Shown: piece by piece, positions 4,634 through 44,608 of the stretch
How the letters are laid out: every line of letters begins with the position of its first letter
How positions within the stretch are numbered: position 1 is the first letter of the stretch
Origin: an uncultured Bacilli bacterium
GTDB lineage: Bacteria; Bacillota_I; Bacilli_A; RF39; UBA660
Length of the DNA stretch: 64,000 nt
Direction of reading: 5' to 3'
NCBI GenBank assembly: GCA_934167875.1
Contig: CAKPMC010000001.1
Coordinates: 13,634-77,633 of the forward strand
Translations under genes and position numbers: made by a program
The notes under the pieces: model-generated
Database searches by the model: none
What the model was told of the DNA's origin: nothing
The model's input: the letters and a program-made list of their open reading frames with translations, nothing else

Positions 4634-5767
4634 TTATTTAACATACTTCTTTATTTTTTTATTATCATCATCAATTAAATTAAGAATTTTTAATACTTTT
4701 AACGTTTTATCTAATGCTAATCTATCATCAACATCTTTTTCTATCAATAGCTCAAAATTATCAAAAGCCTTAATAGCATCCTGTCTATTCTTTATATTAG
4801 TACTTTGCATCTTTAAATATAAATGTTTTTGAACTTCTAAAATTTCTGTTGAAAATAAATCTTTTATTAAAACTTTATCCTCTGTTTTTAATTGTCCTTT
4901 ATTTTTATATTTATAATTACCTGTTTCAATACTATCATAACGCGAATTAATTCTTTTTCCTTGACAAGAAACATAACTATTAACATTAAGATTAGTAACT
5001 ATTTTAGCTTTTTCACTTTTATTTTCTAATTGCGTAATAGTTACCTTATCACTAAAATCAGAACTAACTATATGACCACTATTATCTACAGCCTTTTTAT
5101 AATTAGGATCAAGAGTTGCATTTATAATATTTCCATAAGCTCCAAGATTATAATAGATTTTCTTATCTTTTCTAGAAAATTTATCATATAAAGTATTAAT
5201 TAGTCTTAATTTAGTTTTATCATTATGATATTTTTTCATTAACTCTTTAATATACTTTAAGCCCATAGTTCTATTATTTTTTTCATAATAAGCTAATAGA
5301 AGTATTTCTTTTCTAAATTGCGGTATATCAGCTTCTTTAATCTCATCAGCAGTAATATCGTTATAATAAACTCTTGTATATATTTTATTAACAGCTAAAT
5401 TATGTGGAAAATTATTTCTTGTTTTTCTTATTTCGATTCCTTGAAGCAATAAAGTAGCATCATACTTTATAGATTTAAAACCATTATCATATTGACTATA
5501 AGAATTACAAATAGCTATAGATTGTCTTAATTTAACTTTATCATTATTTTTCTTACCAATCTTAAGTAATATCAAAGCCTTAAAATAATCAATATTAGAT
5601 GATGATAAGGAATAGCTATTACATATTTCCAAGGCCTCATCACATTTTCCAGCGTCTAACAATTTACGAATATTTTTTAAAGTTTCATTTTCATTATTCA
5701 CAAGAATCATCTCCAATTTAATTGCTATTATAATATAAAGTAAGGTAAAAGAAAAGAATAAACACAA
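4634..5767 (-). CDS. Hypothetical protein (about 360-377 aa) downstream of divIVA
   Basis: A long ORF with no motif I recognise. The start is either the TTG at 5767 or the ATG at 5710, where the GGAG abuts the ATG with no spacer. Confidence 0.55.
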   Translation of the reverse strand: MCLFFSFTLLYIIIAIKLEMILVNNENETLKNIRKLLDAGKCDEALEICNSYSLSSSNIDYFKALILLKIGKKNNDKVKLRQSIAICNSYSQYDNGFKSIKYDATLLLQGIEIRKTRNNFPHNLAVNKIYTRVYYNDITADEIKEADIPQFRKEILLLAYYEKNNRTMGLKYIKELMKKYHNDKTKLRLINTLYDKFSRKDKKIYYNLGAYGNIINATLDPNYKKAVDNSGHIVSSDFSDKVTITQLENKSEKAKIVTNLNVNSYVSCQGKRINSRYDSIETGNYKYKNKGQLKTEDKVLIKDLFSTEILEVQKHLYLKMQSTNIKNRQDAIKAFDNFELLIEKDVDDRLALDKTLKVLKILNLIDDDNKKIKKYVK

Positions 5768-5770
5768 AAT

Positions 5771-6205
5771 TTATTCTTCAATCTCTAAAACTTCTATTTC
5801 TTCTACAACCTGTAATTGCTGTTCTACTATAGAACGCAATCTGTTCTTAAATATTCTTAAGTTACGTTCCATATTCTGATTTTTCATTTCGATCTTTTCA
5901 TTTCTAATTAAAGCATCATTAACTATTCTATTAGCATTACGATTAGCTTCATCTATAATAGCTTTAGCCTCACTTCTAGCCATTCTTCTAATATTTTCAC
6001 CAGACTCTTCAGCATTAGTTAAAGCTAAATTCAAACTTCTTTCAATATCTTGATAGTGGATAATTTGTCTTTTTAATGTAGCAATTTCATTTTGTTGGCG
6101 TTCAAGTTTATTTAATACTTTTTCAGTTTGTACGATCACATCATTTAAAAAAGCATTAACTTCTTGCTTATTATAGCCATTTAACTCCTTACTAAATTTC
6201 TTCAT
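5771..6205 (-). CDS. divIVA: Cell-division protein DivIVA
   Basis: The N-terminus FSKELNGYNKQEVNAFLNDV matches the conserved DivIVA lipid-binding N-terminal domain, followed by a coiled-coil. GAGGTGG precedes the ATG at 6205. The gene neighbours sepF and ileS, as in Bacillus. Confidence 0.85.
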   Translation of the reverse strand: MKKFSKELNGYNKQEVNAFLNDVIVQTEKVLNKLERQQNEIATLKRQIIHYQDIERSLNLALTNAEESGENIRRMARSEAKAIIDEANRNANRIVNDALIRNEKIEMKNQNMERNLRIFKNRLRSIVEQQLQVVEEIEVLEIEE

Positions 6206-6236
6206 AATCCACCTCAACTAATGAACTTCTAAAATT

Positions 6237-6665
6237 TTACCAATTAAATTCTTCTTCTTGTTTTTCTTCTTTCTTTCCTTTTACATTCTTTGATGTATCA
6301 TCAGTTATTTTTCCTTCAATATTTACATTATTAGGTGCACATAAGAAAATACCTCCACCTAATTTCTGTAAACTACCATTCATAGCATATAAACTTCCAG
6401 TCAAAAAATCAACAATCCTTTTGGCTTGATCTGGAGTAACTCTTTTCAAATTAACTACAACTGTATTTCTTTTCTTTAAATAATCAGTAATTTGAGTACT
6501 TTCTGAATATGCACGTGGTTCAAATAAAATCATTTTGTTACTACCCAAATCGTTACCTGTAGCATCCTCTTTAGATACACTATAAAATTCTTCTTCTGTT
6601 CCCTCTACTGATGGAGTAGTTTCTTCCTCTACACCAAAAAACTTTTTCATACCATCAAATGCCAT
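6237..6665 (-). CDS. sepF: Cell-division protein SepF
   Basis: The C-terminal SepF/DUF552 core is present (VVVNLKRVTPDQAKRIVDFLTGSLYAMNGSLQKLGGGIFLCAP). GGAGGAGAGGG precedes the ATGGCA start at 6665. Confidence 0.85.
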   Translation of the reverse strand: MAFDGMKKFFGVEEETTPSVEGTEEEFYSVSKEDATGNDLGSNKMILFEPRAYSESTQITDYLKKRNTVVVNLKRVTPDQAKRIVDFLTGSLYAMNGSLQKLGGGIFLCAPNNVNIEGKITDDTSKNVKGKKEEKQEEEFNW

Positions 6666-6757
6666 TGCCCTCTCCTCCATATTCTTCTAACTATAAACTA
6701 TTGTAGCACAGATATCAAAAAAATAAAATATCTTTTTTAAGAAAAGATTAAAGTACT

Positions 6758-7510
6758 TCATAGTTCAAAATATTTTTTCAAAAATATAGTCTCAGAATAA
6801 TAGTTATTTTTTAAAATGAAATAATGATAATAACCTCTTTTCATTTGTTTAACTTCAAAAATAATTTTCTTTTTTGAAAAATTATAAGTATATAAATATC
6901 GCTCCATCAAAAACTTTTCAAAGTAAAAATTAGCTTTATGTATCTCAGAATAAATCTGAAATCCAAGTAAGATTAAAATCAATAATATTAATAAATTCCA
7001 ACTAAAAAAAGCAAAATATAAAAATAATATTAAATACAAAAAGTAACTAAAATAAATAATATATCTTTGACTATAATAATAAGAAAAAATTAAAAATAAT
7101 AATAGTTGTAACAGTCTACCACCATCTAATGGAAAAATAGGAAGTAAATTAAATAAAAGTATAAAGTAATGGTACATATAAAAATAAGTTGGAACTGATA
7201 AATTAGAAATTTTAATAATATAAACAAATACAGTTTGAATAATTGGTCCCATAATTAAAACTAAAAATTCTTTAAATATTGGGATATTAACATCGTATTC
7301 TAATTTAGAACATCCACCATAAGGATATATTTCAATTCTATTTAATTTGAATTTTAGTAGAATTCCTGTTAAACTGTGTCCTAGTTCATGTACCAAAATA
7401 ATAATAGTAAAATAAAATAAATTTTTAAAATGACCTGTTAATAAGCAAATGAAAGCTACTAAATAAAATAATGGATGAAAATATAGTTTATTCCAAATAT
7501 TCTTTATAAT
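6758..7510 (-). CDS. Site-2 (M50) zinc metalloprotease, SpoIVFB-like; probable non-canonical ATT start
   Basis: The HELGH zinc motif and the LLPIFPLDGGRLL motif are present. The first transmembrane helix (LYFHPLFYLVAFICLLTGHFKNLFYFTIIIL) is encoded in frame upstream of the track ORF. That 38-codon stretch has no ATG, GTG or TTG. GGGGAG sits 7 nt upstream of an ATT at 7508-7510, straight after the in-frame stop. Confidence 0.55.
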   Translation of the reverse strand: MIKNIWNKLYFHPLFYLVAFICLLTGHFKNLFYFTIIILVHELGHSLTGILLKFKLNRIEIYPYGGCSKLEYDVNIPIFKEFLVLIMGPIIQTVFVYIIKISNLSVPTYFYMYHYFILLFNLLPIFPLDGGRLLQLLLFLIFSYYYSQRYIIYFSYFLYLILFLYFAFFSWNLLILLILILLGFQIYSEIHKANFYFEKFLMERYLYTYNFSKKKIIFEVKQMKRGYYHYFILKNNYYSETIFLKKYFEL

Positions 7511-8102
7511 CTAAAAACTCCCCTGCTTTTTGAAAATACAAATATATTTCATTACTAATAGCTTCACCAAGCAGCTTACCCTTTTCTACATAATCGTATA
7601 TTTTATAGCTACTATTTTCCACTCCTACATACCATAAATCAATTCCATTTACTTGTTGAACTATAATAGTATTTCCATAATTATCTTTATTACCACTAAA
7701 CACAATAATACCACTTTCTAGAATTGGCACTAGGTAATTATTATCAACTGTTAGCTTTACTCCTTCATTATAATCTTCTTTAGCTTTATATGTAAGTTTC
7801 TCATCAAAAACCATTGCTGTATCAGGCGTTAAATTAGGTAGTGGAAAAATAGAGCCAAAATATTTATTATACATTTTATCAATTTTAGCAAAAGAAAAAT
7901 TAGTTTGATAAACGTTTTTATTAATCCATAATTTAAAACTAGGATTAACTTTTATAATACATAAGCACACTAATAAAATAATACCAGATATCAAAAGTCT
8001 ATTCAAAGCCAAAATCGAATACTTTTTAGTTACAACACGATTATCATCATTTTTTTTATTTAAATACTTTTGAACTAATCGATATTCATCCATCACTATC
8101 AC
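7488..8102 (-). CDS. Membrane-anchored degenerate M23/LytM-like protein, SpoIVFA-like
   Basis: An N-terminal TM helix is followed by a C-terminal M23-fold signature (GIIVFSGNKDNYGNTIIVQQVNGIDLWYVGV...GKLLGEA) that lacks the zinc-binding His residues. It lies directly upstream of the M50 protease. Confidence 0.5.
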   Translation of the reverse strand: MIVMDEYRLVQKYLNKKNDDNRVVTKKYSILALNRLLISGIILLVCLCIIKVNPSFKLWINKNVYQTNFSFAKIDKMYNKYFGSIFPLPNLTPDTAMVFDEKLTYKAKEDYNEGVKLTVDNNYLVPILESGIIVFSGNKDNYGNTIIVQQVNGIDLWYVGVENSSYKIYDYVEKGKLLGEAISNEIYLYFQKAGEFLDYKEYLE

Positions 8103-8116
8103 CTAATAAATAACTA

Positions 8117-8572
8117 TTAATGCTTTTTATTTTTTATTCCTAAAAAGTAACTTAAAACCATACCATATATAATATTTACAGTTAAATTAAGTAAAATAGA
8201 AGTATAAAAAAAAGAAATAGGATAATTATAAAGAAATAGTATTATTAAATATTTTAAAAAGATAAAAGTTAGTATTCCAATTAAAAACAATAATGTTTTA
8301 TTCTTAATACTTTTACCGATATAAATTATTTCTATATATACAACAAAAAATATTAATATATATACAAAATGTATATTACTAAAAAAGAAATCATAAATAA
8401 TAGAAATATAAAAATAATATTTAGTTTTCTTATTGTTCAAATTGTAAATCAAGAAAACTATAACCGTACTAACAAATAATAATGGCAAGTATACAAATAC
8501 AGGGTTGAATAAAGGAATAAAGTATGAAAGTAAAAAATCAAAAAGAAGAGAAATAATAAATATAAATATCAT
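8117..8572 (-). CDS. mreD: Rod-shape protein MreD (polytopic membrane protein)
   Basis: A 151-aa multi-TM protein immediately downstream of mreC with a 1-nt overlap. The call rests on position and size only. Confidence 0.5.
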   Translation of the reverse strand: MIFIFIISLLFDFLLSYFIPLFNPVFVYLPLLFVSTVIVFLIYNLNNKKTKYYFYISIIYDFFFSNIHFVYILIFFVVYIEIIYIGKSIKNKTLLFLIGILTFIFLKYLIILFLYNYPISFFYTSILLNLTVNIIYGMVLSYFLGIKNKKH

Positions 8573-9324
8573 TATATACTCCTATCAACAACACTAACAT
8601 AACGTAACTTATCAAAAGATGTATCATTTTTTACTTTAATATTTTTTTCTATTCCTAAAGAATCATAACTAATATCAATTACTTTTCCAATATAGATTCC
8701 ATCTGGATATACTCCGCCTAACCCATTAGTATAAACTGAATCATTTATATTAATATCGCTATCCTTAGAAACATTAATAATATTAACTGTTTGCGAAAGA
8801 TTGTCATAACCATTTAAAATACCATGATAAACACTATTATTAGTTCTAATATCAACAGCTATTTTCATATCAGAATCATTAGAGCTTAATAATTTAACCA
8901 TACTAAAATTATTGGAAACTTTAATAATTTTTCCAATTAATCCATCATTAGCTATAACAGCCATATTAGTCTTTATGCCATCATTAAATCCCTTATTTAT
9001 TTTAATTTCTTGATACCATAAATCATTTCTTTCAATAACGTCAGCATGAATAAATTGATAATCAGTACTATCAAGTAACAGCATCTTCTTTAATTCCTTG
9101 TTTTCATCTTCTAGTTCCCTATTTATTCCAGAAACAATATTACTATAATCAACCTTAACTTTAGGTATCAAAAAATTTTCCACTTGTGATACTGTATTCT
9201 TTATAATTCTCTCAAAAAAGAAATAATTAGTTCTTTTCTTATCTAAATAAATAAATCCTAGTAAAAATATAATAATTATAACTATCAACAAATATTTTTT
9301 AGCTACTTTTTTCTTATTATACAT
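8572..9324 (-). CDS. mreC: Rod-shape protein MreC
   Basis: An N-terminal TM and coiled-coil are followed by a beta-rich domain (NDGLIGKIIKVSNNFSMVKLL...YPDGIYIGKV) typical of MreC. Confidence 0.8.
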   Translation of the reverse strand: MYNKKKVAKKYLLIVIIIIFLLGFIYLDKKRTNYFFFERIIKNTVSQVENFLIPKVKVDYSNIVSGINRELEDENKELKKMLLLDSTDYQFIHADVIERNDLWYQEIKINKGFNDGIKTNMAVIANDGLIGKIIKVSNNFSMVKLLSSNDSDMKIAVDIRTNNSVYHGILNGYDNLSQTVNIINVSKDSDININDSVYTNGLGGVYPDGIYIGKVIDISYDSLGIEKNIKVKNDTSFDKLRYVSVVDRSI

Positions 9325-9337
9325 AATTCACCTTTAG

Positions 9338-10024
9338 TTATAAATTAATAATTTTTCCATCTTCATAAAAACTATAGTAATCATTATCACCAATTATAAC
9401 ATGGTCAATAATAGGAATACCATTTACTTGTCCTAACTCAACTAAAGAATTAGTCAAACGAATATCTTCTCTACTAGGATTTACATTTCCACTAGGATGA
9501 TTATGAACACAAATAATACCTGATGCACTACATAAATAAGCATTTTTAAATACTTCTCTTGGATGTACTACACTACGATTTAAAGTCCCCATAAACAATA
9601 ATTTCCTTTCAATCAATTCTTTTCTTTGATTAACATATAAGCAATAAAAATACTCCTGTTTTTTATCATATAATTGATACTTCATATAATTATAAATACT
9701 GTTTGAAGAAGTAAGTAATAACTTATCACTAAAGTTATCATTCATATAAATTCGTTTACCAAGTTCAACAACACTAAGTAAAGTAAGAGCTTGTACTAGT
9801 CCTATTCCTTTTATCTGCTGTAACTGTTCCTTAGTTGCATCTTTTAAATTATTTATCCCATTAAAATAATTAAGAACATTATTACTAATCTCTTTTACAG
9901 ATAGTTTGCCATTACCAGTTTTTAGTATTATCGATAGTAATTCTTCATTAGATAAATTTTCTTTTCCATATTCCATTAACCTTTCTCTAGGTCTTTCTTT
10001 TAGTGGTAAATCTTTTACCTTCAT
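9338..10024 (-). CDS. radC: RadC-like JAB-domain protein (UPF0758)
   Basis: The JAB metalloprotease motif HNHPSGNVNPSREDIRLT and the helix-hairpin-helix-like N-terminal region are present. The gene sits upstream of mreC, as in the Bacillus maf-radC-mre cluster. Confidence 0.85.
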   Translation of the reverse strand: MKVKDLPLKERPRERLMEYGKENLSNEELLSIILKTGNGKLSVKEISNNVLNYFNGINNLKDATKEQLQQIKGIGLVQALTLLSVVELGKRIYMNDNFSDKLLLTSSNSIYNYMKYQLYDKKQEYFYCLYVNQRKELIERKLLFMGTLNRSVVHPREVFKNAYLCSASGIICVHNHPSGNVNPSREDIRLTNSLVELGQVNGIPIIDHVIIGDNDYYSFYEDGKIINL

Positions 10025-12568: not shown

Positions 12569-13117
12569 TTAATTTTGTTCAATAATTTTTACTCTACCAT
12601 GTCCACCATTAGTATAATCATAATTAATAACATCAGGATTATATTCATCTAAGTTAAAATATTCTTTTAGTGCTGCCACCATTTCTTTATATCTATTAAC
12701 AGCAGCATCAAATTTACCATCAGATACATAATTAGCTGTAGGTTGTAAATAAAAGTTATAGAACTGTGTCCATATTTCTCTATCGTTATTTTCTTCATAT
12801 TCCTTTTTAATAAAATAAGCAATATCAGGTCCAAGTGTATCATACTCTAATAAAAGATCACTATATTTAGAATCTTTTTGCATTACATTGTCTCTGAATG
12901 ATCTAAGAGTATCTAAAACACTACAATCATCAGCATACCCTAAAACATCACAAATAATAGTCGTTATATAACATCCACTACTAATCTCTCTAGGATTTTG
13001 ATGAGAACAACTATCACCAGGATAATAATATGTTCTATACCAACTACAATATCCTTTACTACAATCTCCTTGAAAATCAAAATATGTGCATCCACCACAT
13101 TGTGTTTCATATGCCAT
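12569..13117 (-). CDS. Hypothetical protein, paralog B, with an extra Cys-rich N-terminal extension
   Basis: The C-terminal 130 aa align with paralog A (ITTIICDVLGYADDCSVL, IWTQFY, ALKEYFNLDEYN). The N-terminal 50 aa carry 9 Cys. AAGGAGTGG precedes the ATG. Confidence 0.55.
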   Translation of the reverse strand: MAYETQCGGCTYFDFQGDCSKGYCSWYRTYYYPGDSCSHQNPREISSGCYITTIICDVLGYADDCSVLDTLRSFRDNVMQKDSKYSDLLLEYDTLGPDIAYFIKKEYEENNDREIWTQFYNFYLQPTANYVSDGKFDAAVNRYKEMVAALKEYFNLDEYNPDVINYDYTNGGHGRVKIIEQN

Positions 13118-13136: not shown

Positions 13137-13817
13137 TTAATAACTAATTTTCTGTGTTAATTGATAATCTGGAAAATATTCATTCATAATTTTACTACAA
13201 TTTTGAACATAATCAACTGACATTTTTTTCTTTTTCCAATTAACCCAACCATTATACATACCAAAAATATCATCAAGTGTATCAACATCATCTCTACTAG
13301 TAATATCATTTAATAAAAATAAACATGCTTCAGTGTTCTTTATTGGATCATTTAGTATTTCATCTTTAGTAAAACCAAGTTTAGTATTAATATAAGATAA
13401 ATTAGCTTTATTAATTTGAAATAATCCATAATCATTAGTAGCAGATATCACGCCATTAGTATTCCAAGTACCACCAGATTCTTGTTCACCAATAGTAAGC
13501 ACTATTTGATATGGTATACCATAATCATCTGACAATCTTTTTATTTCATCTTCTAATTCATTACTTAATGCCATTCCAGAATAATTATTTTCGCTAAATG
13601 TAATAGTAGAAGAATAATTATTGTTAATACAATCAGATAAATCAAAATTTAGATTAGTAAAACTATCAAAGTTAACATGTGATAATGAGAATTTAGAGGT
13701 AGCCTCACTAGCTAAACTTTCATGATTTGATGAACTAAAAATGGAAAACACAAAAGCAAAATAAAATAAATTACAGTATAATTTAGAAACAGCTTTTTTC
13801 TTCTTGTAATAATTCAT
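13137..13817 (-). CDS. Secreted lytic-transglycosylase-like (SLT-domain) protein
   Basis: An N-terminal signal peptide is followed by GEQESGG and YGLFQIN, which resemble the catalytic Glu and GLMQ motifs of SLT domains. Confidence 0.5.
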   Translation of the reverse strand: MNYYKKKKAVSKLYCNLFYFAFVFSIFSSSNHESLASEATSKFSLSHVNFDSFTNLNFDLSDCINNNYSSTITFSENNYSGMALSNELEDEIKRLSDDYGIPYQIVLTIGEQESGGTWNTNGVISATNDYGLFQINKANLSYINTKLGFTKDEILNDPIKNTEACLFLLNDITSRDDVDTLDDIFGMYNGWVNWKKKKMSVDYVQNCSKIMNEYFPDYQLTQKISY

Positions 13818-13951: not shown

Positions 13952-15760
13952 TCATTGTATTACAAATGGATCTGAACTTGATCCTGTCCCTGAAACTTTA
14001 GTATCTACTTTAATATTAACAACAGGACGAAGCAAATTAGAATAATTGGTACGATTACTATAAACAATGCCTGAATCATTAATGCGCCATTCACCTAAAT
14101 ATGTTATACCTACACCAGATGGGCTCATAGTCCAAGCAAAAGTACCGTTTTGTAAGTAATAAGAATCATTTTCTTGGTTAAAATAACCACCAGCATAGAT
14201 TAGTTCATCATATGTTATAAGTCCTATGTTAGAACTAACCAATCCTTTACCATTACCATCAGTTTCACATTTAAAGTTTGGAGTATAACTATCATATACT
14301 ATCATTTCTGCATTACCAGAAGTCCAAGAAGATGAAAACTTAGTTTTTGCTTCTTCACAATAATAATTACCAGTTGCTACATATTTTGAATAATTAGTAT
14401 TGTTTTTTATATTAGTACTATACCAATTTTCTAATTGTGTTTTAGCTTTGCTATTTGAATAATACATATATGTATAATTATCATATTTTGAATTAAATAC
14501 ATAACTAGCATTATTATTAATTCCATTTTGCATTATCATTCTTATTGTTCCATCTTCATTAATACGTACTATTCTCCATGTAAATCCAGCAAATGATACA
14601 TAATTATTTTCTACTGCTCCTCTAAAATAATAAGTAGGTTTACCAGTATTAGTATCAATTGATTTATATAATCCACTTTCATCACTAGTATTATTACTTG
14701 ATGTAGTTAATGTTGGTTCTTTAGTTATTAATGGGTTAACCTTTAGTATTTCATCTTTTAAAACAACTTTACCTTTTTCTACACTAATTTTAATTTTATA
14801 TTCATTAGTTGCTGTTTTATCTTCACTTGTTACTGTTACTTTAAAATAATTATCTCCTGGATTTAATTCAACTGTCTTTTTAGTTGATAGTCTTTTAATA
14901 TTTGATCTTGTTTCGTTATATGCTAAACTATCTATCTTCTCTACTTTAACTGTAGAATATTCATTTTCTGTTTCAATATCTATAGCTGCTTCTGTTGTTC
15001 CTTCTGGTAATGTAGCTTCATATTGATATTCTTTATCTTCTACTTTTGTAAGTTCACTATTATTTACTCTTACACTTTTTATGTTAGCATTTGCTGCTTG
15101 AACTTTATCACTTTCTGTTACTACATTAGCATTTGCATATACATTAACCGTTAAAGTAAAAGTCTTTCCATTATATGGATATGTATCATTTCCATCTTCA
15201 TCTTTTACTGGTGAAAAATCGATACCTTCATCTAACCACATTCTTAATTTAAAATTCTTTTCATATTTAGTTGTATTTGCTGGTACTTTTCCTTTATATA
15301 ATGTCTTCTCTACTATTCCTTCTGGTATAGTTGTATCAGTTTCTTTTAAATTAGAATAATTATCAAGTAATAATTCACTCTCTTCTCCATCTACTTCTGT
15401 TAAATATACTTTTACTGCTTTTTCATCTAATGTTGAATTACTACTTTTTCTTGCTGTTACTTCATATGGAATACTAGTATTACTTAATGTATCTGATGTT
15501 ATCTTAAATTCAAATACATTACCACTTCCTGTTAACAGTTTCCCTTGATCATCACTAATAGGTAAACTATCTTCTATCTTTATTCCTTTTCCTACTCCTG
15601 TTACTTCTGTATATAAGAATGTTATTGTTCCTGTTTTTATACTATTTTCTGTTGTTCCTTTTTTAGTATAACTAAAGAATGCATAACTTACTCCTATCGT
15701 TACTACTAGTAACATAACTATCGCTATTACCGATAATACCAAATTCTTTTTATTTTTCAT
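13952..15760 (-). CDS. Secreted protein with a SipW-cognate/TasA-camelysin-like N-terminal signal motif plus a large C-terminal extension (paralog 1, 602 aa)
   Basis: The N-terminus MKNKKNLVLSVIAIVMLLVVTIGVSYAFFSYTKKGTTEN resembles the TasA-family A.F.D signal-peptidase motif. The first 200 aa align with the 30904 and 27191 paralogs. AGGAGGAT precedes the ATG. Confidence 0.55.
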   Translation of the reverse strand: MKNKKNLVLSVIAIVMLLVVTIGVSYAFFSYTKKGTTENSIKTGTITFLYTEVTGVGKGIKIEDSLPISDDQGKLLTGSGNVFEFKITSDTLSNTSIPYEVTARKSSNSTLDEKAVKVYLTEVDGEESELLLDNYSNLKETDTTIPEGIVEKTLYKGKVPANTTKYEKNFKLRMWLDEGIDFSPVKDEDGNDTYPYNGKTFTLTVNVYANANVVTESDKVQAANANIKSVRVNNSELTKVEDKEYQYEATLPEGTTEAAIDIETENEYSTVKVEKIDSLAYNETRSNIKRLSTKKTVELNPGDNYFKVTVTSEDKTATNEYKIKISVEKGKVVLKDEILKVNPLITKEPTLTTSSNNTSDESGLYKSIDTNTGKPTYYFRGAVENNYVSFAGFTWRIVRINEDGTIRMIMQNGINNNASYVFNSKYDNYTYMYYSNSKAKTQLENWYSTNIKNNTNYSKYVATGNYYCEEAKTKFSSSWTSGNAEMIVYDSYTPNFKCETDGNGKGLVSSNIGLITYDELIYAGGYFNQENDSYYLQNGTFAWTMSPSGVGITYLGEWRINDSGIVYSNRTNYSNLLRPVVNIKVDTKVSGTGSSSDPFVIQ

Positions 15761-15832: not shown

Positions 15833-15858
15833 GAAAAAAGAACTGCAAACGCAGTCCT
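15833..15858 (-). terminator. Rho-independent terminator after htpG
   Basis: On the minus strand a hairpin GGACUGC-guuu-GCAGUUC is followed by UUUUUUCUU. Confidence 0.55.
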
Positions 15859-15865
15859 TACAAAA

Positions 15866-27090: not shown

Positions 27091-27190
27091 GCTGTTCGCC
27101 TCCTTAAAATTAATTTTTATTATAACATCTAACAAAAAAAAAGCAACAATTTATACAATTTTTTACATTGGATAATATTGCCACTTTAAA

Positions 27191-27757
27191 TTAAGCTTGA
27201 GAACCTTCTATTATTAACTTTCCGTAAAAATAATGATTCATAATTTCATTACCACTATTTTTATCAATCCATACTATCAAAGAAGAAGTAATAGTACCAT
27301 TAGCACTAATAGTACCACTAGATACTATATTATTATTACTAGATAATAATTGGGGTTCCGTATATGAACCATCTTCTTTTTTATAAGCAAATTTAATATA
27401 AGCAGTACTAAGTTCAGGACAATTTGTACCATCATCTAATTGACAACTACTAAGTTTATCAGTATCTGCAACTACTTTAATGGAATAATTAATATCACTA
27501 TTAGAATTATTTATCATTTTAAATTCAAATGGTTCTAAGTTAAGTCCTTCAGAATCAGATATAGGATAAGCATTATTTAAATTAAGACTATCATTATCAT
27601 TAACAATCTCAACTTTAATACCATTAATAGTAATAATATTTACTAAATCACCCTTCTTCATATATTTAAAAAAACCAAAACTATTACCTATTAAGAAAAT
27701 AATAGCTAGTCCAATCAAAATACTACATATAATCAAAATTATTTTTTTCTTATTCAT
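27191..27757 (-). CDS. Secreted protein of the TasA-like paralog family (paralog 3, about 188 aa)
   Basis: The N-terminal TM plus IGNSFGFFKY motif and the internal blocks (AYPISDSEG, FEFKMINNSNSD, YSIKVVADTD) align with the 13952 and 30904 proteins. AAGGTG precedes the ATG. Confidence 0.5.
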   Translation of the reverse strand: MNKKKIILIICSILIGLAIIFLIGNSFGFFKYMKKGDLVNIITINGIKVEIVNDNDSLNLNNAYPISDSEGLNLEPFEFKMINNSNSDINYSIKVVADTDKLSSCQLDDGTNCPELSTAYIKFAYKKEDGSYTEPQLLSSNNNIVSSGTISANGTITSSLIVWIDKNSGNEIMNHYFYGKLIIEGSQA

Positions 27758-27809
27758 AATAATCACACCTTACTATGCTCAGTATAGCATTTTTAGAAAA
27801 AAAAAGAAA

Positions 27810-30874: not shown

Positions 30875-30905
30875 AAAAAAAAAGAATAGTCCAAACTATT
30901 CTTTT
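30875..30905 (-). terminator. Rho-independent terminator after TasA-like paralog 2
   Basis: On the minus strand a hairpin AAGAATAGT-ttgg-ACTATTCTT is followed by TTTTTTTGAA. Confidence 0.55.
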
Positions 30906-31593
30906 ATCCACCAGTTACTACTGTAGCATTAGCATAAACATTAACAGTAACTGTAAACTTTTTATTATTCATAGGGTACTCTCCACTTTCATTAGGACTA
31001 TAATCCGTATCATCAGCTATCCACATTCTTAATCTAAAATTCTTTTCATAATTAGTAGATGATGCTGGAACACTACCATTATAAATAGTTTTTTCGATAG
31101 TTCCATCCGTTACAGCTACACTTGTTTGATTAAGTTCACTAAATCTAGCTACGTTAGTATCTTTTAAAGTAAGTGGTGCTGGAGTTTCAGTATCAGTACC
31201 AACTTCAGTTAAATAAATCTTGATAGCTTCTTCTGGAACAGTTGAATCAGCTTTCTTACGAGCAGTTATTTCATATGGAAGACTAGTATTACCTGTAGTA
31301 GTAGCAAGTACTTTAAAATCAAAAACATTATTATCTCCAGTTAAAAGTTTACCGTTAGCATCAGTTGTAGGTAAAGCATCAACTATAGTAATACCATTTC
31401 CACTAGCATTCTTTTCATCATACAAGAAGGTAATTGTTCCTGTAGTAATAGTATTTTCTGTTGTACCTAATCTAGCATAAGTAAAAAATGCATAACTAAC
31501 ACCAATAGTAACAGCTACTAATAAAAAGATTGCTAATACTAACACTATTCTAGATTGTGTTCTTATTTCTTTTTTAGTATCTTTCTTATCCAT
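30904..31593 (-). CDS. Secreted protein of the TasA-like paralog family (paralog 2, 229 aa)
   Basis: TIGVSYAFFTYARLGTTENTITTGTITFLY is near-identical to the N-terminus of the 13952 protein. AAAGGAGA precedes the ATG. Confidence 0.55.
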   Translation of the reverse strand: MDKKDTKKEIRTQSRIVLVLAIFLLVAVTIGVSYAFFTYARLGTTENTITTGTITFLYDEKNASGNGITIVDALPTTDANGKLLTGDNNVFDFKVLATTTGNTSLPYEITARKKADSTVPEEAIKIYLTEVGTDTETPAPLTLKDTNVARFSELNQTSVAVTDGTIEKTIYNGSVPASSTNYEKNFRLRMWIADDTDYSPNESGEYPMNNKKFTVTVNVYANATVVTGG

Positions 31594-41112: not shown

Positions 41113-41785
41113 TTACTCACTTATTACCATTCCATTTTCATCGAATTTGTAGCCACCTGTAACTTGAGGTTCAGGTGTATTATTAACAGTTTCGGTTTCA
41201 TCATTAATTACAGTACCGTTTTCATCAAATTGGTATTGAGGAATATTTGTAGCTGTAGAATTTTCATCAGTACCATCGCTAATAACTACTCCATTTTCAT
41301 CGAATTTATAATTATTTGTAGTATCTTGAGCAGGTGTACTATTAATAACCTCAGTACCATCATCAATCACAGTACCATTTTTATCGAACTTGTACTGAGA
41401 AGTAGTTGAAGTTTCAGAAACATTATCAACGCCATCACTAATAACAACACCATTCTCATCAAACTTATAATTATTTGTATCTTGAGGTGTAGGATTACTA
41501 TTAACAGTTTCAGTTCCATCACTTATTACGAATCCGTTTTCATCAAATTGATACTTAGGAGTACTAGCAGAATTTTCATTAGTTTCAGTACCATCACTAA
41601 TAACTACACCATTTTCATCGAATTTAAAAATATTAGCTTTATCCTGATTTGTAGCTATTTCAGTACTATATTCATTTTTAAAAGGATTAACAGTCTCTAC
41701 AGGTTCATTACTTACCAAATTTTCTTCAAGACTAGTATTTCCATCAAAAACAACAACTCCATTTTCGTCAAATTTTAAATTTGCC
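41113..41785. repeat. Tandem coding repeats of about 80-90 bp (roughly 8-9 units) inside the 41113-42084 gene
   Basis: Repeated DNA units containing TTCATCGAATTT/TTCATCAAATTG and GTACCATC are visible in this span. The spurious plus-strand ORFs 41164-41409 and 41482-41778 arise from it. Confidence 0.7.
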
Positions 41786-42084
41786 ATAAATGCTTTTCGA
41801 TCATAATCTTTATCAGGTTCTTCTATATTTCTATTTAATGCGTTATTAAATACTTCATATTGATCGTTTTTAAAGCCAAGAAAATCAATATTTTCAATTT
41901 GAACATGATTAAAAGAAATTACCTGTGAAGGTAAAAGTAAACCTTCTGGATAAACACATCCCTTATAATCATACATAGTAACATTTCCATTATATTCAAT
42001 AGAAAAATAGCTAATAACCATTATTTTTTTATTATTGCCTTTCAAAGTACACACAGTACCTATAGGTAAATATTTATTATTCAT
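41113..42084 (-). CDS. DUF4176-like N-terminal domain protein with a C-terminal array of about nine tandem FDENG(V/T)VISDGTE repeats
   Basis: The N-terminal 90 aa (LPIGTVCTLKGNNKKIMVISY...YDYKGCVYPEGLL) resemble DUF4176 proteins found in T7SSb loci. The rest is a visible 25-30-aa repeat (YKFDENGVVISDGTE...). Confidence 0.55.
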   Translation of the reverse strand: MNNKYLPIGTVCTLKGNNKKIMVISYFSIEYNGNVTMYDYKGCVYPEGLLLPSQVISFNHVQIENIDFLGFKNDQYEVFNNALNRNIEEPDKDYDRKAFMANLKFDENGVVVFDGNTSLEENLVSNEPVETVNPFKNEYSTEIATNQDKANIFKFDENGVVISDGTETNENSASTPKYQFDENGFVISDGTETVNSNPTPQDTNNYKFDENGVVISDGVDNVSETSTTSQYKFDKNGTVIDDGTEVINSTPAQDTTNNYKFDENGVVISDGTDENSTATNIPQYQFDENGTVINDETETVNNTPEPQVTGGYKFDENGMVISE

Positions 42085-42149
42085 ATCTAACCTCTCTTTA
42101 TTCTTTTACTAAATTATACAAAAAATATTAATATTTTTCAACACATACT

Positions 42150-42458
42150 TTATATTTTACTAACCCTTTTAGTGATTTCAGTTACTGGTAACACACTAGC
42201 ATATTTTTCTAACTCATCTGATGTTTTAGTAATTATATTTATGCTATTAGTTAAATGGTCTTGTTCATCAATAAGACTATTTTTAGCATTACTTAAATCT
42301 GACTTTATTTGAAGTAATTGTGTTTTATATTTGAAATTACCTGGAATAACAGTAGAATCCATAAGATTAAGTGCTGGAGACAAACTACTAATGCTATCTT
42401 TTAGATTAGGAATGATAGTATTTTGAATCTGTTCTGGATTAAATTCTAATTTAGCCAT
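42150..42458 (-). CDS. Small helical T7SS-associated protein (102 aa)
   Basis: Its start overlaps the upstream stop as TAATG. TGAGGTGAAAG precedes the ATG. Predicted all-helical. Confidence 0.45.
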   Translation of the reverse strand: MAKLEFNPEQIQNTIIPNLKDSISSLSPALNLMDSTVIPGNFKYKTQLLQIKSDLSNAKNSLIDEQDHLTNSINIITKTSDELEKYASVLPVTEITKRVSKI

Positions 42459-42745
42459 TATTCTTTCACCTCATTGATTTTCTGTTCCATGGTATCAGCA
42501 TAATCTAATAAGAACTTGCCATAATTATAAATATTACTTTTTATATTTAAATATTGAAGTTTATCTATTTTAGCAGTCTCTGTAAATAAATTAGCACTAG
42601 CACCAACCCATTCACCAGTAGTAACATTCATATTATTTATGCGAGTAAACATTGTAGTAATAATTTCATTCATTTCTTTTGATAATTCTATTATTTCAGT
42701 ACCACATTCTCTTATTTTAGTTGTATCTATATTTATTTGAGTCAT
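42458..42745 (-). CDS. WXG100 family secreted protein (EsxA-like)
   Basis: At about 95 aa it carries the central WXG motif (TGEWVGASANLF) in a helix-turn-helix-sized protein. AAGAGGTG precedes the ATG (MTQINID). Confidence 0.65.
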   Translation of the reverse strand: MTQINIDTTKIRECGTEIIELSKEMNEIITTMFTRINNMNVTTGEWVGASANLFTETAKIDKLQYLNIKSNIYNYGKFLLDYADTMEQKINEVKE

Positions 42746-42801
42746 AAACACCTCTTATTTTAATAAAAGCTAGTAACAATATGTCCTAGCTTTTATTATC
42801 A

Positions 42802-43296
42802 TTATTTAGTTAAACTAACATTTTTCATTTTATTATTACTTGCAGGTTTGCTAGGTTTAGAAACATTAGGTTTACTAACTGAAGGTTGACTAGGTTTAGA
42901 ATTTGAACTAGGTGTAGGATTACTACTAGAAGAAGAATTTTGATTACTAGCAGCTTGCTGTGCAGCTAATCTAGCAGCTTCTTCCTGAGCCCTACGTTCA
43001 GCTTCTAAACGTTGTTCTTCCTGACTAATAGCATTACTTATATTTCTAATCTTAACTTCAATCTCAGGTAAAATCTGATTAGAAATTAAGTTGCGATCAT
43101 TAACAATAATATTTCTACTATTACTAATAACACCATTATCACCACTATTATCATCAATACTAAAGTATGATTCAATATTAGAACAAACTTCCAATGAATC
43201 TTTACTTTTATCTAAATAATTACAAACCTGTGATAATATATTTTTTAAATTAATATATTGATTTCTTTCATTTCTTAAAGCATTTAAATCTGCCAT
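42802..43296 (-). CDS. Hypothetical T7SS-locus protein with a coiled-coil and a Ser/Pro-rich tail
   Basis: The ORF has an AQEEAARLAAQQAA coiled-coil followed by a SSSSSNPTPSSNSKPSQPS low-complexity C-terminus. Confidence 0.4.
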   Translation of the reverse strand: MADLNALRNERNQYINLKNILSQVCNYLDKSKDSLEVCSNIESYFSIDDNSGDNGVISNSRNIIVNDRNLISNQILPEIEVKIRNISNAISQEEQRLEAERRAQEEAARLAAQQAASNQNSSSSSNPTPSSNSKPSQPSVSKPNVSKPSKPASNNKMKNVSLTK

Positions 43297-43313
43297 AATT
43301 TTAACCTAACAAA

Positions 43314-43763
43314 CTACTTATGTTCAGTATATTTTTCTTTTGAATCAACTGCTGATGCCATATTATCATAATTACTTGCAACACGATTAATATTAGTTTG
43401 ATATGCTTCATAAACATATTGTAACTTATCAGAAAAAGCTAATAAGCCACTAACATAAACTGACCAAGCCTTTCTTACGCCTTCAATATATTTTTTTACC
43501 GCTGCTTGTACTTCATCACTTTTAAAAGCACCATCTGCACCAGCTAATGGATCAATAGCATCAATATTAGATGTAACATTGTCAACATATTGTCTAATAG
43601 CATCCCTCATTGCAGGAATTTTATTAGCATTAATACCAACAACACTATAATCACCTTCAATATAGTTACTTTGAAGTTCATTATCCATACCTCTAGTAAC
43701 ATCAAAATTTCTATCTTTTATTTCATTTCCAGCATTAAAAGCTGCTGCTAAACCCCAAGCCAT
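43314..43763 (-). CDS. Hypothetical T7SS-locus protein (149 aa)
   Basis: The ORF has a strong RBS GAGGAGGAAA and no recognised motif. Confidence 0.45.
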   Translation of the reverse strand: MAWGLAAAFNAGNEIKDRNFDVTRGMDNELQSNYIEGDYSVVGINANKIPAMRDAIRQYVDNVTSNIDAIDPLAGADGAFKSDEVQAAVKKYIEGVRKAWSVYVSGLLAFSDKLQYVYEAYQTNINRVASNYDNMASAVDSKEKYTEHK

Positions 43764-43833
43764 ATATTATTTCCTCCTCACTATAAATCATAATACTAAT
43801 ATTTAAAACCAAAAATATTTTTATTTATAAATT

Positions 43834-44160
43834 TTAACCTTCATAATTATCATATACAATAGAATCAATATTAAAGTAATTATTCATAAGTGTTGTAAGT
43901 TCGGTTTCAAAATTTTTCTTTTGAACATCAATGTTTTTTATTATTTGATTAAGATTTTCTTTAAAATCTTTAATGAAATTATCTCTTGAAACACCTTGCC
44001 AACCATCACTTATAACAGATTCCAAATAAGAATAGCCATCAGTAAGATCACGCCCAGTCCTATTAAAAATCTGATCAGATAGATTATCAATATAACTTTG
44101 CATACCAGCTTTAGATACTCCAATACTAAGATCACCTATGCCTAAATCTTCACCATACAT
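43834..44160 (-). CDS. WXG100-like small protein
   Basis: At 108 aa it carries the central SDGWQGVSRDNF motif. TGGGAGATGA precedes the ATG. Confidence 0.55.
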   Translation of the reverse strand: MYGEDLGIGDLSIGVSKAGMQSYIDNLSDQIFNRTGRDLTDGYSYLESVISDGWQGVSRDNFIKDFKENLNQIIKNIDVQKKNFETELTTLMNNYFNIDSIVYDNYEG

Positions 44161-44488
44161 TTTTATTCATCTCCCATTCTCTACTATTTGCTAAAATATT
44201 ATCAGCAATATTTTCAGCACCAACTTTGTAAGATTGCTTTACTTTAACAAAATCACTTGCATAGCTTAAAATATTTTGATTAATAATTTGATAATATTCT
44301 GCCTGCTTTTTAAAATTACTACAAAAGATTTGATTCACTTCTGAATTAAAATAATTTTTAGAATTATCAACCAAAATTTGAAGTTGATTGAAAATATTAT
44401 TTAACTTATCAGCATATTCAATTATATCTGTAGCCATCCTATCTAAGCCAATTTCATTAACACCACTAACATTATACTGTTCATGCAT
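44150..44488 (-). CDS. Small helical T7SS-associated protein (112 aa), first gene behind the internal promoter
   Basis: The ORF follows a TTGACA-18-TAAAAT promoter, and its stop overlaps the next gene. Confidence 0.45.
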   Translation of the reverse strand: MHEQYNVSGVNEIGLDRMATDIIEYADKLNNIFNQLQILVDNSKNYFNSEVNQIFCSNFKKQAEYYQIINQNILSYASDFVKVKQSYKVGAENIADNILANSREWEMNKNVW

Positions 44489-44527
44489 TATACTATCACC
44501 ATACTATCAAACTTCTATCTTACAATT

Positions 44528-44561
44528 AAATTTTACACATTGTTAAACATAATTGTCAATA
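44528..44561 (-). promoter_or_regulatory. Sigma-A-like promoter (TTGACA-18-TAAAAT) driving the WXG100/small-protein cluster
   Basis: On the minus strand there is a perfect -35 TTGACA (44554-44559), an 18-nt spacer and TAAAAT (44530-44535). It lies between the yukD terminator and the 44488 start. Confidence 0.5.
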
Positions 44562-44565
44562 TATA

Positions 44566-44601
44566 AAAGAAAAAAATGTAAAATTTAATTTTTTTTTACA
44601 T
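44566..44601 (-). terminator. Rho-independent terminator after esaB/yukD
   Basis: On the minus strand a hairpin AUGUAAAA-10-nt loop-UUUUACAU is followed by UUUUUUCUUUU. Confidence 0.55.
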
Positions 44602-44608
44602 TTTTCAA

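What the first reader, a model, noticed from the sequence alone, without database searches (positions are those of the whole stretch)
13952..15760. Three dispersed paralogs of a secreted protein family with a SipW/TasA-like signal motif
Proteins at 13952-15760, 27191-27757 and 30904-31593 share an N-terminal TM plus G(V/N)S(Y/F)(A/G)FF(S/T/K)Y motif. They also share conserved internal blocks: (S/A)LPxSDxxGKL, FEFK/FDFK and Y(E/S)(V/I)(T/K)A(R/V)K. Each sits alone on the minus strand between housekeeping operons, with its own terminator. The N-terminus resembles the SipW-cognate signal of the TasA/camelysin biofilm-fibre proteins. No sipW-type signal peptidase is in the window. The 602-aa member carries an additional large Tyr/Asn/Gly-rich C-terminal domain.
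Basis: partly seen in the sequence, partly recalled or inferred. Interest (0 to 1): 0.6.

Follow-up and report, generated by a model that had tools for sequence, protein, structure and literature searches.

The report
Unannotated TasA-like exported surface-protein family
Three scattered genes in an uncultured gut bacterium encode exported proteins that share an N-terminal module distantly related to the TasA biofilm-fibre protein; the longest one adds sugar-binding-like domains, and the family is large and has no database annotation.

Summary
Three minus-strand ORFs (602, 229 and 191/188 aa) share an N-terminal signal or membrane helix, a conserved G-x-[ST]-[YF]-[AG]|F-F-x-Y motif and a ~190-aa beta-sandwich module. 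The 602- and 229-aa proteins are 53% identical (E 1e-62). The 191-aa protein is a distant member (profile E 8e-11).

The family is large: 3,226 clusters at 50% identity. It has no Pfam or NCBIfam annotation. Single uncultured low-GC gut Bacilli ("Tenericutes") MAGs carry 5-13 or more dispersed copies.

No sipW gene lies in the window or in ~1 Mb of related loci. Its presence elsewhere in the genome could not be tested.

The 602-aa protein's "Tyr/Asn/Gly-rich" tail is a cadherin-like Ig domain plus a divergent DUF6273 (C-type-lectin-like) domain.

Most likely these are Sec-exported proteins with a TasA-type module that carries binding domains. Fibre formation is inferred, not shown.

The parts
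13952..15760 (-). Gene for the 602-aa family member: signal peptide, TasA-like N-module, cadherin-like Ig domain, DUF6273-like domain
   Evidence: ORF. Family profile E 2e-99. AF2 model pLDDT 72.6.
15680..15760 (-). 602-aa protein, residues 1-27: Lys-rich n-region, ~18-residue hydrophobic helix and the G-V-S-Y-A motif. Predicted cleavage is A27|F28.
   Evidence: Sequence. Position-by-position register with the verified TasA cleavage site A27|A28. The cleavage itself is inferred.
15116..15679 (-). 602-aa protein, residues 28-215: shared beta-sandwich N-module, including the putative N-terminal donor-strand region FFSYTKKGTTEN
14783..15037 (-). 602-aa protein, residues 242-326: cadherin-like beta-sandwich domain
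   Evidence: Pfam PF12733, E 1.1e-9, 39 bits vs cutoff 24.2.
13955..14728 (-). 602-aa protein, residues 345-602: C-terminal domain, a divergent DUF6273 / C-type-lectin-like domain (core residues 401-589 = 13994-14560) with conserved C468 and C498
13924..13947 (-). Intrinsic terminator hairpin after the 602-aa gene, followed by a T-run
   Evidence: dG -10.6 kcal/mol, z -5.4.
15838..15859 (-). Terminator of the upstream htpG gene, which isolates the 602-aa gene as its own transcription unit
30904..31593 (-). Gene for the 229-aa core-only family member: signal residues 1-35 (31489-31593), module residues 36-229 (30907-31488). Predicted cleavage is A35|F36.
30880..30905 (-). AT-rich terminator hairpin overlapping the stop codon of the 229-aa gene, followed by U9
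   Evidence: dG -9.4 kcal/mol, z -2.7. The consensus scan missed it because the stem has fewer than 3 G-C pairs.
27191..27766 (-). Gene for the 191-aa divergent family member (188 aa from the ATG at 27757): signal residues 1-31 (27674-27766) with motif G-N-S-F-G|F-F-K-Y. The module is shorter and less similar.
   Evidence: ORF. Family profile E 8e-11 over profile positions 5-109. Gene callers use the 188-aa form. Syntenic between tig and lon in related contigs.
27140..27187 (-). Imperfect hairpin plus U9 after the 191-aa gene (probable terminator)
   Evidence: dG -12.0 kcal/mol, z -2.2.

Best explanation
The three genes encode paralogs of a large, unannotated family of Sec-exported surface or extracellular proteins from uncultured, low-GC, spore-forming gut Bacilli (binned as Tenericutes/Mycoplasmatota).

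Every member begins with the same unit:
- a Lys-rich n-region;
- an ~18-residue hydrophobic helix;
- a near-invariant T-x-G-V-[ST]-Y-A|F-F-x-Y motif;
- a ~190-residue jelly-roll/beta-sandwich domain.

This unit is a very divergent branch of the TasA/BsaA/camelysin (Peptidase_M73) superfamily. Its signal peptide is of the TasA (SipW-cognate) type.

Proposed mechanism:
1. Export through Sec.
2. Cleavage by a type I signal peptidase (SipW-like or generic) after the small -3/-1 residues [ST]-[YF]-A.
3. The new N-terminus (FFxYxKxGTTEN...) acts as a donor strand that inserts into the beta-sandwich of another subunit, as in TasA, BsaA and AbpA.
4. The core-only 229-aa protein would build or nucleate a fibre or sheet. 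Longer paralogs would then be displayed on that scaffold. The 602-aa protein, with its cadherin-like and DUF6273 lectin-like domains, is one such paralog.

Status of the steps:
- Shown: paralogy, family size and expansion, strictly N-terminal position of the module, motif register with TasA, transitive profile link to PF12389, domain content.
- Inferred: cleavage, donor-strand exchange, fibre formation, binding function.

My sub-confidences are: exported surface/extracellular family ~0.9; genuine remote TasA-superfamily relationship ~0.65; donor-strand polymerisation ~0.35.
For: Paralogy.

Family size and architecture:
- 3,226 clusters at 50% identity. In all but one (an N-terminally truncated entry, P0175) of the 150 best the module starts within the first ~35 residues, never internally; total lengths reach 1,264 aa.
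- 85 members in 79 loci all start at the N-terminus.
- 5-13 or more dispersed copies per MAG.
- C-terminal partners are binding modules: LRR_5, Laminin_G_3, F5_F8_type_C, cadherin-like, DUF6273, ALK_LTK_GRD.

Motif:
- G31 96%, A35 92%, F37 96%, Y39 99%, G43 98%, N47 98%, F56 99%, Y58 99%, E60 98%.
- It aligns in register with TasA G24-T-W-A27|A-F-N-D..N37..G42-T-L.
- The mature TasA start at A28 was verified against 8aur_A.

Profile links:
- Window family vs sister group: 100% probability, E 5e-42; 99.9% without signal peptides.
- Sister group vs TasA family: 76%, E 2.2e-5, over 99 columns.
- Sister-group members pass the PF12389 threshold and nearly reach the TIGR04088 cutoff.
- A TasA-only 28-column motif HMM puts 37 family members in its top 70 of 1,469 ORFs (hypergeometric 8e-31; paralogs are not independent).

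Fold:
- AF2 pLDDT 80. The region just after the predicted cleavage site is low-confidence in both models (residues 39-52 of the 229-aa model, 21-38 of the 602-aa model), as expected for a free donor strand.

Precedents:
- TasA donor strand residues 28-38 (PMC9674648).
- BsaA donor strand 28-38 and a broad BsaA/TasA family extending beyond IPR022121 (PMC11580942).
- AbpA has no linked SipW, and AbpB's distal domains are proposed adhesins (PMC9245690).
Against: - The window proteins and 30 close relatives do not hit PF12389; TIGR04088 is touched by only 3 of the 30, at E~6.
- Direct hhalign to the TasA family is weak: 13%, falling to 0.2% (E 0.34) when signal peptides are removed. The sister group to TasA link also falls to 16% (E 0.0016). 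Most of the sequence signal therefore lies in the signal and cleavage region.
- A profile search of PDB sequences finds nothing.
- Foldseek gives only TM 0.2-0.3 and ranks CBM, lectin and MAM jelly-rolls level with TasA.
- Individually the window proteins score ~0 bits on the TasA motif HMM.
- No sipW, tapA, sortase or other recurrent partner gene lies near any of 79 loci.
- No multimer model or experiment supports strand exchange.
Confidence: 0.5

Rival explanations
1. The proteins are membrane-anchored monomeric adhesins. The N-terminal hydrophobic helix is an uncleaved signal-anchor. The conserved motif is a membrane-interface or stalk-packing element. The beta-sandwich is simply a stalk that holds binding domains away from the membrane. 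On this view there is no fibre assembly, and any similarity to TasA is ancient or incidental.
For: - The hydrophobic segment is ~18-20 residues, long enough to span a membrane.
- AF2 continues the helix through the motif (helix 3-41 in the 229-aa model).
- No signal peptidase was found in the window or in ~1 Mb of related loci.
- The variable C-terminal binding domains fit surface display.
- Foldseek sees only a generic jelly-roll.
Against: - Positions -3 and -1 are small residues ([ST] 97%, A 92%), as at cleaved sites. They align exactly with the experimentally defined TasA cleavage site.
- TasA's own h-region is equally long.
- Core-only members such as the 229-aa protein have no cargo to display, yet they are the most conserved and syntenic.
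- The region just after the motif is near-invariant (Y39, G43, N47) but low-confidence in the monomer model. That suggests an intermolecular or processing role.
Confidence: 0.27
2. The proteins are ordinary secreted carbohydrate-binding or cell-surface proteins whose N-module is an unrelated jelly-roll of CBM or lectin type. The TasA-like motif is then convergence on a good signal-peptidase site followed by a first beta-strand.
For: - Foldseek top hits are CBM3, CBM28, PA14, MAM and lectin jelly-rolls, with E and TM values equal to or better than TasA.
- Mature-domain hhalign to TasA is not significant.
- The partner domains are lectin-like.
Against: - The module is never internal or repeated, unlike CBMs.
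- Sister-group members pass PF12389 with matches that extend into the mature domain (profile positions 12-91). The sister-group alignment with TasA covers 99 columns, including the P-x-D...F-x-F block.
- Motif correspondence spans about 9 positions over 25 residues.
- Family-level enrichment on a TasA-only motif HMM.
Confidence: 0.15
3. The proteins are spore-surface or coat-associated components. TasA was first described as spore-coat-associated protein CotN. On this view the family decorates endospores of this lineage rather than vegetative cells or a biofilm matrix. This is compatible with either assembly mode above.
For: - The lineage carries sporulation genes: CotE in a related MAG, CotJB and a Mn-catalase/CotJC-type gene beside the window, and SpoIVFB-like M50 and LysM proteins in the window.
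- TasA's spore association is stated in PMC9674648.
Against: - A Sec signal peptide on every member points to export from the cell that makes it.
- No sporulation promoter or regulon evidence was obtained.
- The genes sit among vegetative housekeeping genes.
Confidence: 0.08

Closest known systems
TasA / CalY (camelysin) family, Pfam PF12389 Peptidase_M73, with the TIGR04088 SipW-cognate signal
   Same: - N-terminal signal ending in G-x-[ST]-aromatic-A, followed by x-F-polar.
- Conserved N-x-hydrophobic and G-T-[LI] a fixed distance downstream.
- P-x-D...F-x-F block.
- ~190-residue jelly-roll/beta-sandwich.
- Homologous sister-group members pass the PF12389 threshold.
   Different: - The window proteins fail both curated models.
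- The residue at +4 is an invariant Tyr rather than Asp.
- There is a 2-residue insertion before the conserved Asn.
- There is no tapA-sipW operon.
- There are many dispersed paralogs per genome.
- The module is fused to long, variable C-terminal binding domains.
- There is no His at all in the 602- and 229-aa proteins, so no metalloprotease activity is possible.
Clostridium perfringens BsaA (TasA-like matrix protein with donor-strand exchange plus an intermolecular isopeptide lock; PMC11580942)
   Same: - Remote TasA relatives outside IPR022121.
- An N-terminal ~11-residue disordered donor strand with an Asn in an N-x-hydrophobic context.
- The window family has N47 (98%), E60 (98%) and K125 (91%), which could form an N-E-K triad.
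   Different: - BsaA sits in a sipW-bsaA-bsaB-bsaC operon and needs type IV pilus proteins for secretion.
- No such genes accompany this family.
- The geometry of the triad could not be checked, and its spacing differs (N to E is 13 residues here vs 21 in BsaA).
Archaeal bundling pilus AbpA/AbpB (Pyrobaculum; PMC9245690)
   Same: - A very divergent TasA homolog detectable only by profile or structure methods.
- No dedicated SipW nearby, so a generic signal peptidase is presumed.
- The accessory subunit has distal beta domains proposed to act as adhesins.
   Different: - It is an archaeal system in a conserved eight-gene operon.
- Here the genes are dispersed singletons, and the adhesin-type domains are fused directly to the TasA-like module.
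DUF6273 (PF19789), as in the N-terminal domain of the Thomasclavelia ramosa IgA peptidase (an enlarged C-type-lectin-like domain)
   Same: [quoted passage not shown]
   Different: - There is no direct Pfam hit.
- There is no attached M64 peptidase.
- The ligand is unknown.
- The zinc ligands of the IgAse domain were not checked.

Membership tests
TasA/camelysin (Pfam PF12389 Peptidase_M73) | Match to the curated HMM above the gathering score (22.5 bits) | tested here: not met
   No hit for the three window proteins at E<=1. 0 of 30 close relatives hit at E<=10. Met only by sister-group proteins L071:2673-4427 (25.7 bits) and L071:4921-5334 (23.5 bits), and by precomputed hits on 11 of the 120 listed sister-group proteins.
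TasA/camelysin (Pfam PF12389 Peptidase_M73) | Profile-profile homology to the TasA family | tested here: inconclusive
   Window family vs TasA family: 13% probability, E 0.0022; 0.2% without signal peptides. Sister group vs TasA: 76%, E 2.2e-5; 16% without signal peptides. Window family vs sister group: 100% and 99.9%. The link is transitive and weighted toward the N-terminal 100 residues.
TasA/camelysin (Pfam PF12389 Peptidase_M73) | TasA-like jelly-roll fold | tested here: inconclusive
SipW-cognate signal peptide (NCBIfam TIGR04088) | Match to the 34-position model above the cutoff (19 bits) | tested here: not met
   No hit for the window proteins. 3 of 30 relatives hit at E~6. Sister-group members score 15.9 and 15.7 bits, E 0.011-0.012. 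The motif register with TasA is nevertheless conserved.
tapA-sipW-tasA-type system | Linked dedicated signal peptidase (SipW, S26B) and accessory TapA-like gene | tested here: not met
No recurrent neighbour exists.
tapA-sipW-tasA-type system | A SipW-type peptidase somewhere in the genome | not testable with these tools
   Only 64 kb plus 20 kb of this genome could be read. Failure to find S26 in ~1 Mb sampled from ~15 related MAGs is uninformative, since about one hit would be expected at best.
Donor-strand-exchange fibres (TasA, BsaA, AbpA) | The N-terminal strand of one subunit completes the beta-sandwich of the next | not testable with these tools
   No multimer prediction was available. 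Indirect support only: the post-cleavage region is low-confidence in the monomer models (residues 39-52 of the 229-aa model, 21-38 of the 602-aa model) and contains near-invariant residues (Y39, G43, N47).
BsaA-type exchange-and-lock | [quoted passage not shown] | tested here: inconclusive
   N47 98%, E60 98% and K125 91% are conserved in the window family. In the sister group the figures are N 73%, E/D 78% and K 56%. Spatial proximity could not be examined.
DUF6273 (PF19789) / C-type-lectin-like | HMM match, or homology to a bona fide member | tested here: met
Cadherin-like beta-sandwich (PF12733) | HMM match above the gathering score | tested here: met
   Residues 242-326 of the 602-aa protein, 39 bits vs 24.2, E 1.1e-9.
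Type IV pilin / pseudopilin | Class III signal: a short leader, then G|F-x-x-x-E before the hydrophobic helix | tested here: not met
   The conserved motif follows the hydrophobic helix rather than preceding it, and there is no Glu at +5 (sequences).
Sortase-anchored surface proteins or pilins | C-terminal LPXTG-type sorting signal; a sortase nearby | tested here: not met
   No LPxT[GAS] or TLxTC motif in any window ORF of 80 aa or more.
Zinc metalloprotease (the 'camelysin' activity) | HExxH or other metal-binding His residues | tested here: not met
   The 602- and 229-aa proteins contain no His at all.

The most novel reading that the evidence does not exclude
The family may constitute a modular fibre-adhesin system that needs no sortase, no chaperone and no dedicated operon. 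In this reading, a conserved core-only subunit (the 229-aa protein) polymerises by TasA-type donor-strand exchange. The polymer may be locked by an N47-K125 isopeptide bond catalysed by E60, as in BsaA. Because every paralog carries the same donor strand and acceptor module, any of the 5-13 or more paralogs per genome could be spliced into the same fibre. Their C-terminal domains include lectin-like (DUF6273), cadherin-like, LRR, discoidin and laminin-G types. The result would be a combinatorial, heteropolymeric adhesive surface coat in abundant but uncultured gut Bacilli.
Probability: 0.18. Interest if true: 0.75.

Novelty: new variant of a known kind. Interest (0 to 1): 0.45.

Why it matters
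TasA-type fibres are known mainly from Bacillus biofilms, one Clostridium system and a few archaea. There they are small single-domain subunits encoded next to their peptidase.

This family would extend the superfamily in three ways:
- to thousands of unannotated proteins in uncultured, small-genome gut Bacilli;
- to a fused architecture, in which a TasA-like N-module carries lectin, LRR or cadherin cargo;
- to a dispersed multi-paralog genomic organisation.

If the module does polymerise, it would be a simple way for these commensals to build adhesive, host- or glycan-binding surface structures. It would also give a handle (a profile HMM) for annotating a large block of "hypothetical proteins" in gut metagenomes. 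If it does not polymerise, the finding is still a useful domain definition, but an ordinary one.

Tried and rejected
1. Direct Pfam and NCBIfam scans of the three proteins and of 30 relatives found no TasA, M73 or TIGR04088 hit.
2. A profile search of PDB sequences with the family alignment found nothing at E<=10. The single sister-group protein also found nothing relevant.
3. The afdb50 Foldseek library was unavailable.
It covered the window, 79 genome loci and 5 Pfam-annotated contig neighbourhoods, and found nothing. This shows no linkage, not absence from the genome.
5. Unbiased neighbour clustering to find a dedicated partner gene recovered only syntenic housekeeping genes.
6. The type IV pilin, sortase-substrate, lipoprotein and metalloprotease readings were rejected on motif grounds (and inspection).
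7. A sequence search of the C-terminal domain against the PDB returned only noise.
8. Cluster-member look-up to get organism names returned almost no names beyond "Tenericutes/Mycoplasmatota bacterium".
9. NCBI taxonomy for "Candidatus Scybalousia" is ambiguous between a Bacteroidales genus and the Bacilli genus Alloscybalousia, so I did not rely on it.
Full report
**1. Checking the observation**

The window has 26% G+C and almost all genes are on the minus strand.
- 13952-15760: 602 aa
- 30904-31593: 229 aa

BLASTP gives 53% identity over ~220 residues between the 602- and 229-aa proteins (E 1e-62 to 2e-72). It gives 31% over 117 residues between the 191- and 602-aa proteins (E 6e-9). tblastn finds no fourth copy in the window.

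The N-terminal motifs read VTIGVSYAFFSY, VTIGVSYAFFTY and FLIGNSFGFFKY.

Each gene is followed directly by a hairpin plus U-run: dG -10.6, -9.4 and -12.0 kcal/mol, with z -5.4, -2.7 and -2.2. The 602-aa gene is also insulated upstream by the htpG terminator.

**2. What the family is**

The 229-aa protein is 100% identical to a hypothetical protein from a "Tenericutes/Mycoplasmatota bacterium" MAG. Its 287 word-index homologs carry no name and essentially no Pfam domain.

An exhaustive profile search found 3,226 clusters at 50% identity with E<=1e-3, of which 421 have E<=1e-30. In all but one (an N-terminally truncated entry, P0175) of the 150 best the module begins within the first ~35 residues. 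Total lengths range from ~200 to 1,264 aa.

In GTDB species representatives, all 112 confirmed hits but the five-locus, probably mislabelled Muribaculaceae MAG lie in uncultured gut "Bacilli", "Tenericutes" or Ca. Scybalousia MAGs. Single MAGs carry 5-13 or more copies on different contigs. This count is a lower bound because the DNA patterns were narrow.

The lineage has MreC, SLT, M23 and M50 peptidases, CotE, CotJB and a CotJC-type gene. It is therefore a walled spore-former, not a true mollicute.

Among 85 members in the fetched loci, the module always starts at the N-terminus. Only 8 adjacent pairs occur. Unbiased neighbour clustering finds only syntenic housekeeping genes. The 229-aa and 191-aa genes are syntenic single-copy orthologs in related genomes.

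Long members append classic binding modules: BspA-type LRR, Laminin_G_3, F5/8-type C, cadherin-like, DUF6273 and the ALK/LTK Gly-rich domain.

**3. Testing the TasA/SipW interpretation**

- None of the three proteins hits PF12389 or TIGR04088.
- Of 30 close relatives, 0 hit PF12389 and 3 touch TIGR04088 at a meaningless E~6.
- A profile search of PDB sequences finds nothing.

There is, however, a transitive link. The family profile also recovers divergent proteins such as L071:2673-4427 and L071:4921-5334, whose motif reads GSSYAIFSD...N.VT.GTLQL. These pass the PF12389 gathering score (25.7 and 23.5 bits vs 22.5). They reach 15.9 and 15.7 bits on TIGR04088, whose cutoff is 19.

That sister group is very large: more than 7,900 database hits, with PF12389 precomputed on 11 of the 120 listed hits.

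Local hhalign results:

| Comparison | With signal peptides | Signal peptides removed |
|---|---|---|
| Window family vs sister group | 100%, E 5e-42, 176 columns | 99.9%, E 1e-33 |
| Sister group vs TasA family (120 sequences seeded with verified TasA) | 76%, E 2.2e-5, 99 columns (TasA 11-113) | 16%, E 0.0016 |
| Window family vs TasA family | 13%, E 0.0022 | 0.2%, E 0.34 |

The sequence evidence is therefore real at family level, but it is concentrated in the signal, cleavage and first-strand region.

Column statistics show the register:
- Window family: T29-x-G31-V-[TS]-Y-A35 | F36-F37-x-Y39 ... G43 ... N47-x-I ... G52-T-I-x-F56-x-Y58-x-E60
- TasA family: G22-G-G-T-W-A27 | A28-F29-N-D ... 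N37-x-F39 ... G42-T-L-D-L

The two differ by a 2-residue indel. My remembered TasA sequence was verified: residues 28-261 are identical to chain 8aur_A, which fixes the natural cleavage site at A27|A28.

I also built a 28-column HMM from TasA-family sequences only. It places 37 family members among its top 70 hits of 1,469 ORFs, where family members make up 85 of the 1,469 (hypergeometric 8e-31; paralogs are not independent). The three window proteins individually score about 0 bits, at ranks 80, 103 and 195.

**4. Structure**

The AF2 model of the 229-aa protein has pLDDT 80.4. It shows a helix at residues 3-41, a low-confidence stretch at 39-52 and a beta-sandwich at 57-221.
- Foldseek returns only weak jelly-roll matches with TM 0.2-0.3. 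TasA chains have among the highest TM scores (0.28-0.30) but rank 18 and 25.

**5. The 602-aa protein**

The AF2 model has pLDDT 72.6. After the shared module the protein contains:
- a cadherin-like domain at residues 242-326 (PF12733, 39 bits);
- a ~260-residue C-terminal domain that recurs in 27 locus ORFs, 24 of them with the N-module.

The C-terminal domain has no direct Pfam hit. It does align at 99.9% probability (E 6e-37, 40% identity) with a region of P0125 that passes the DUF6273 threshold.

The 602- and 229-aa proteins contain no histidine, which excludes a metalloprotease.

**6. Signal peptidase**

No S26 catalytic-box motif and no phmmer hit (best E 0.056) occurs in any of the following:
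- the window;
- 79 loci totalling ~1 Mb;
- 20 kb beyond the window edges;
- Pfam-annotated neighbourhoods of sister-group genes.

This rules out a tapA-sipW-tasA-like operon. It says nothing about the rest of the genome, which I could not read.

**7. Mechanism**

Shown:
- The family carries a signal-type N-terminus.
- The motif is strictly N-terminal and highly conserved, with small residues at -3 and -1 in register with the TasA cleavage site.
- A beta-sandwich module follows.
- The C-terminal binding domains are variable.

Inferred:
- Sec export and cleavage at A|F.
- Use of the new N-terminus as a donor strand. It contains near-invariant residues (Y39, G43, N47) and lies in a region that is low-confidence in both monomer models.
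- Assembly in the manner of TasA (donor strand 28-38; PMC9674648), BsaA (PMC11580942) or AbpA.

The core-only 229-aa protein is the natural candidate for a shaft or nucleator subunit. The 602-aa protein would be an adhesive subunit.

One speculative extension is a BsaA-like isopeptide lock using N47, E60 and K125, which are conserved at 98%, 98% and 91%. I could not test its geometry.

**8. Rivals**

- The N-terminus is an uncleaved signal-anchor and the proteins are monomeric adhesins (0.27).
- The module is an unrelated CBM-like jelly-roll, and the cleavage-site motif arose by convergence (0.15).
- The proteins are located on the spore surface (0.08, not exclusive of the others).

Type IV pilin, sortase-substrate and protease readings are excluded by motif checks.

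**9. Novelty and verdict**

The family has no Pfam or NCBIfam model, and I found no description of it in the papers searched. It is best seen as a new, highly divergent and architecturally distinct variant of the TasA/BsaA superfamily. It is not a new kind of system.

Curated-model membership is not met, and the SipW dependence remains untested.

Noticed in passing
window 41113-51373 (minus strand): Apparent type VIIb secretion cluster. It includes an EssC-like 1,543-aa ATPase (FHA plus FtsK/SpoIIIE domains) at 44853-49484, and small helical ORFs without Pfam hits at 42802-44488 that are possible WXG100/LXG-type substrates. A DUF4176/DUF6980 protein lies at 41113-42084 and a zinc-ribbon membrane protein at 50486-51373.
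   Followed up: partly
window 13137-13817 (minus strand): A secreted SLT-domain lytic transglycosylase (226 aa, PF01464) lies immediately downstream of the 602-aa gene, after its terminator. Next come a Cys-rich 182-aa ORF (12569-13117) and a 128-aa ORF with no family hits. I could not tell whether the SLT enzyme helps large surface proteins cross the wall.
   Followed up: no
window 4634-10024; L083, L087: The organism is labelled Tenericutes/Mycoplasmatota but has cell-wall and sporulation genes: MreC, an MreD-like protein, SepF, DivIVA, M23 and SpoIVFB-like M50 peptidases, and LysM. CotJB and a CotJC-type gene flank the window, and CotE occurs in a related MAG. It is a walled, spore-forming Bacilli lineage, not a mollicute.
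   Followed up: partly
L071:4921-5334 and the downstream ORF (L083 12255-14729): A 135-137-aa TasA-like ORF stops just before a 685-aa ORF. This looks like a family gene split by a frameshift or stop, i.e. a pseudogene or an assembly error, sitting next to an intact 584-aa paralog.
   Followed up: no
L023, L042, L043, L047, L053 (assembly CAYRDW): One MAG with five family copies is labelled 'uncultured Muribaculaceae bacterium'. Every other host is a Bacilli or Tenericutes MAG, so this is probably a mislabelled or contaminated bin. NCBI also uses 'Candidatus Scybalousia' both for a Bacteroidales genus and as a synonym of the Bacilli genus Alloscybalousia.
   Followed up: partly
P0125 (791 aa), P0243 (1,002 aa), P0263 (1,264 aa): Some family members stack several cargo domains after the N-module. 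P0125 has two DUF6273-type domains, P0243 has six cadherin-like repeats, and P0263 has seven BspA-type LRR stretches. This suggests rapid domain shuffling behind a fixed N-terminal unit.
   Followed up: partly
cluster of P0020: Many gene calls for the 79%-identical ortholog are only 102-147 aa instead of 234 aa. One of them lies on a 1.44-Mb single contig, which is a near-complete genome of a sister species. That contig would be the ideal target for a whole-genome SipW search, and it may reveal alternative starts or truncations of this gene.
   Followed up: no
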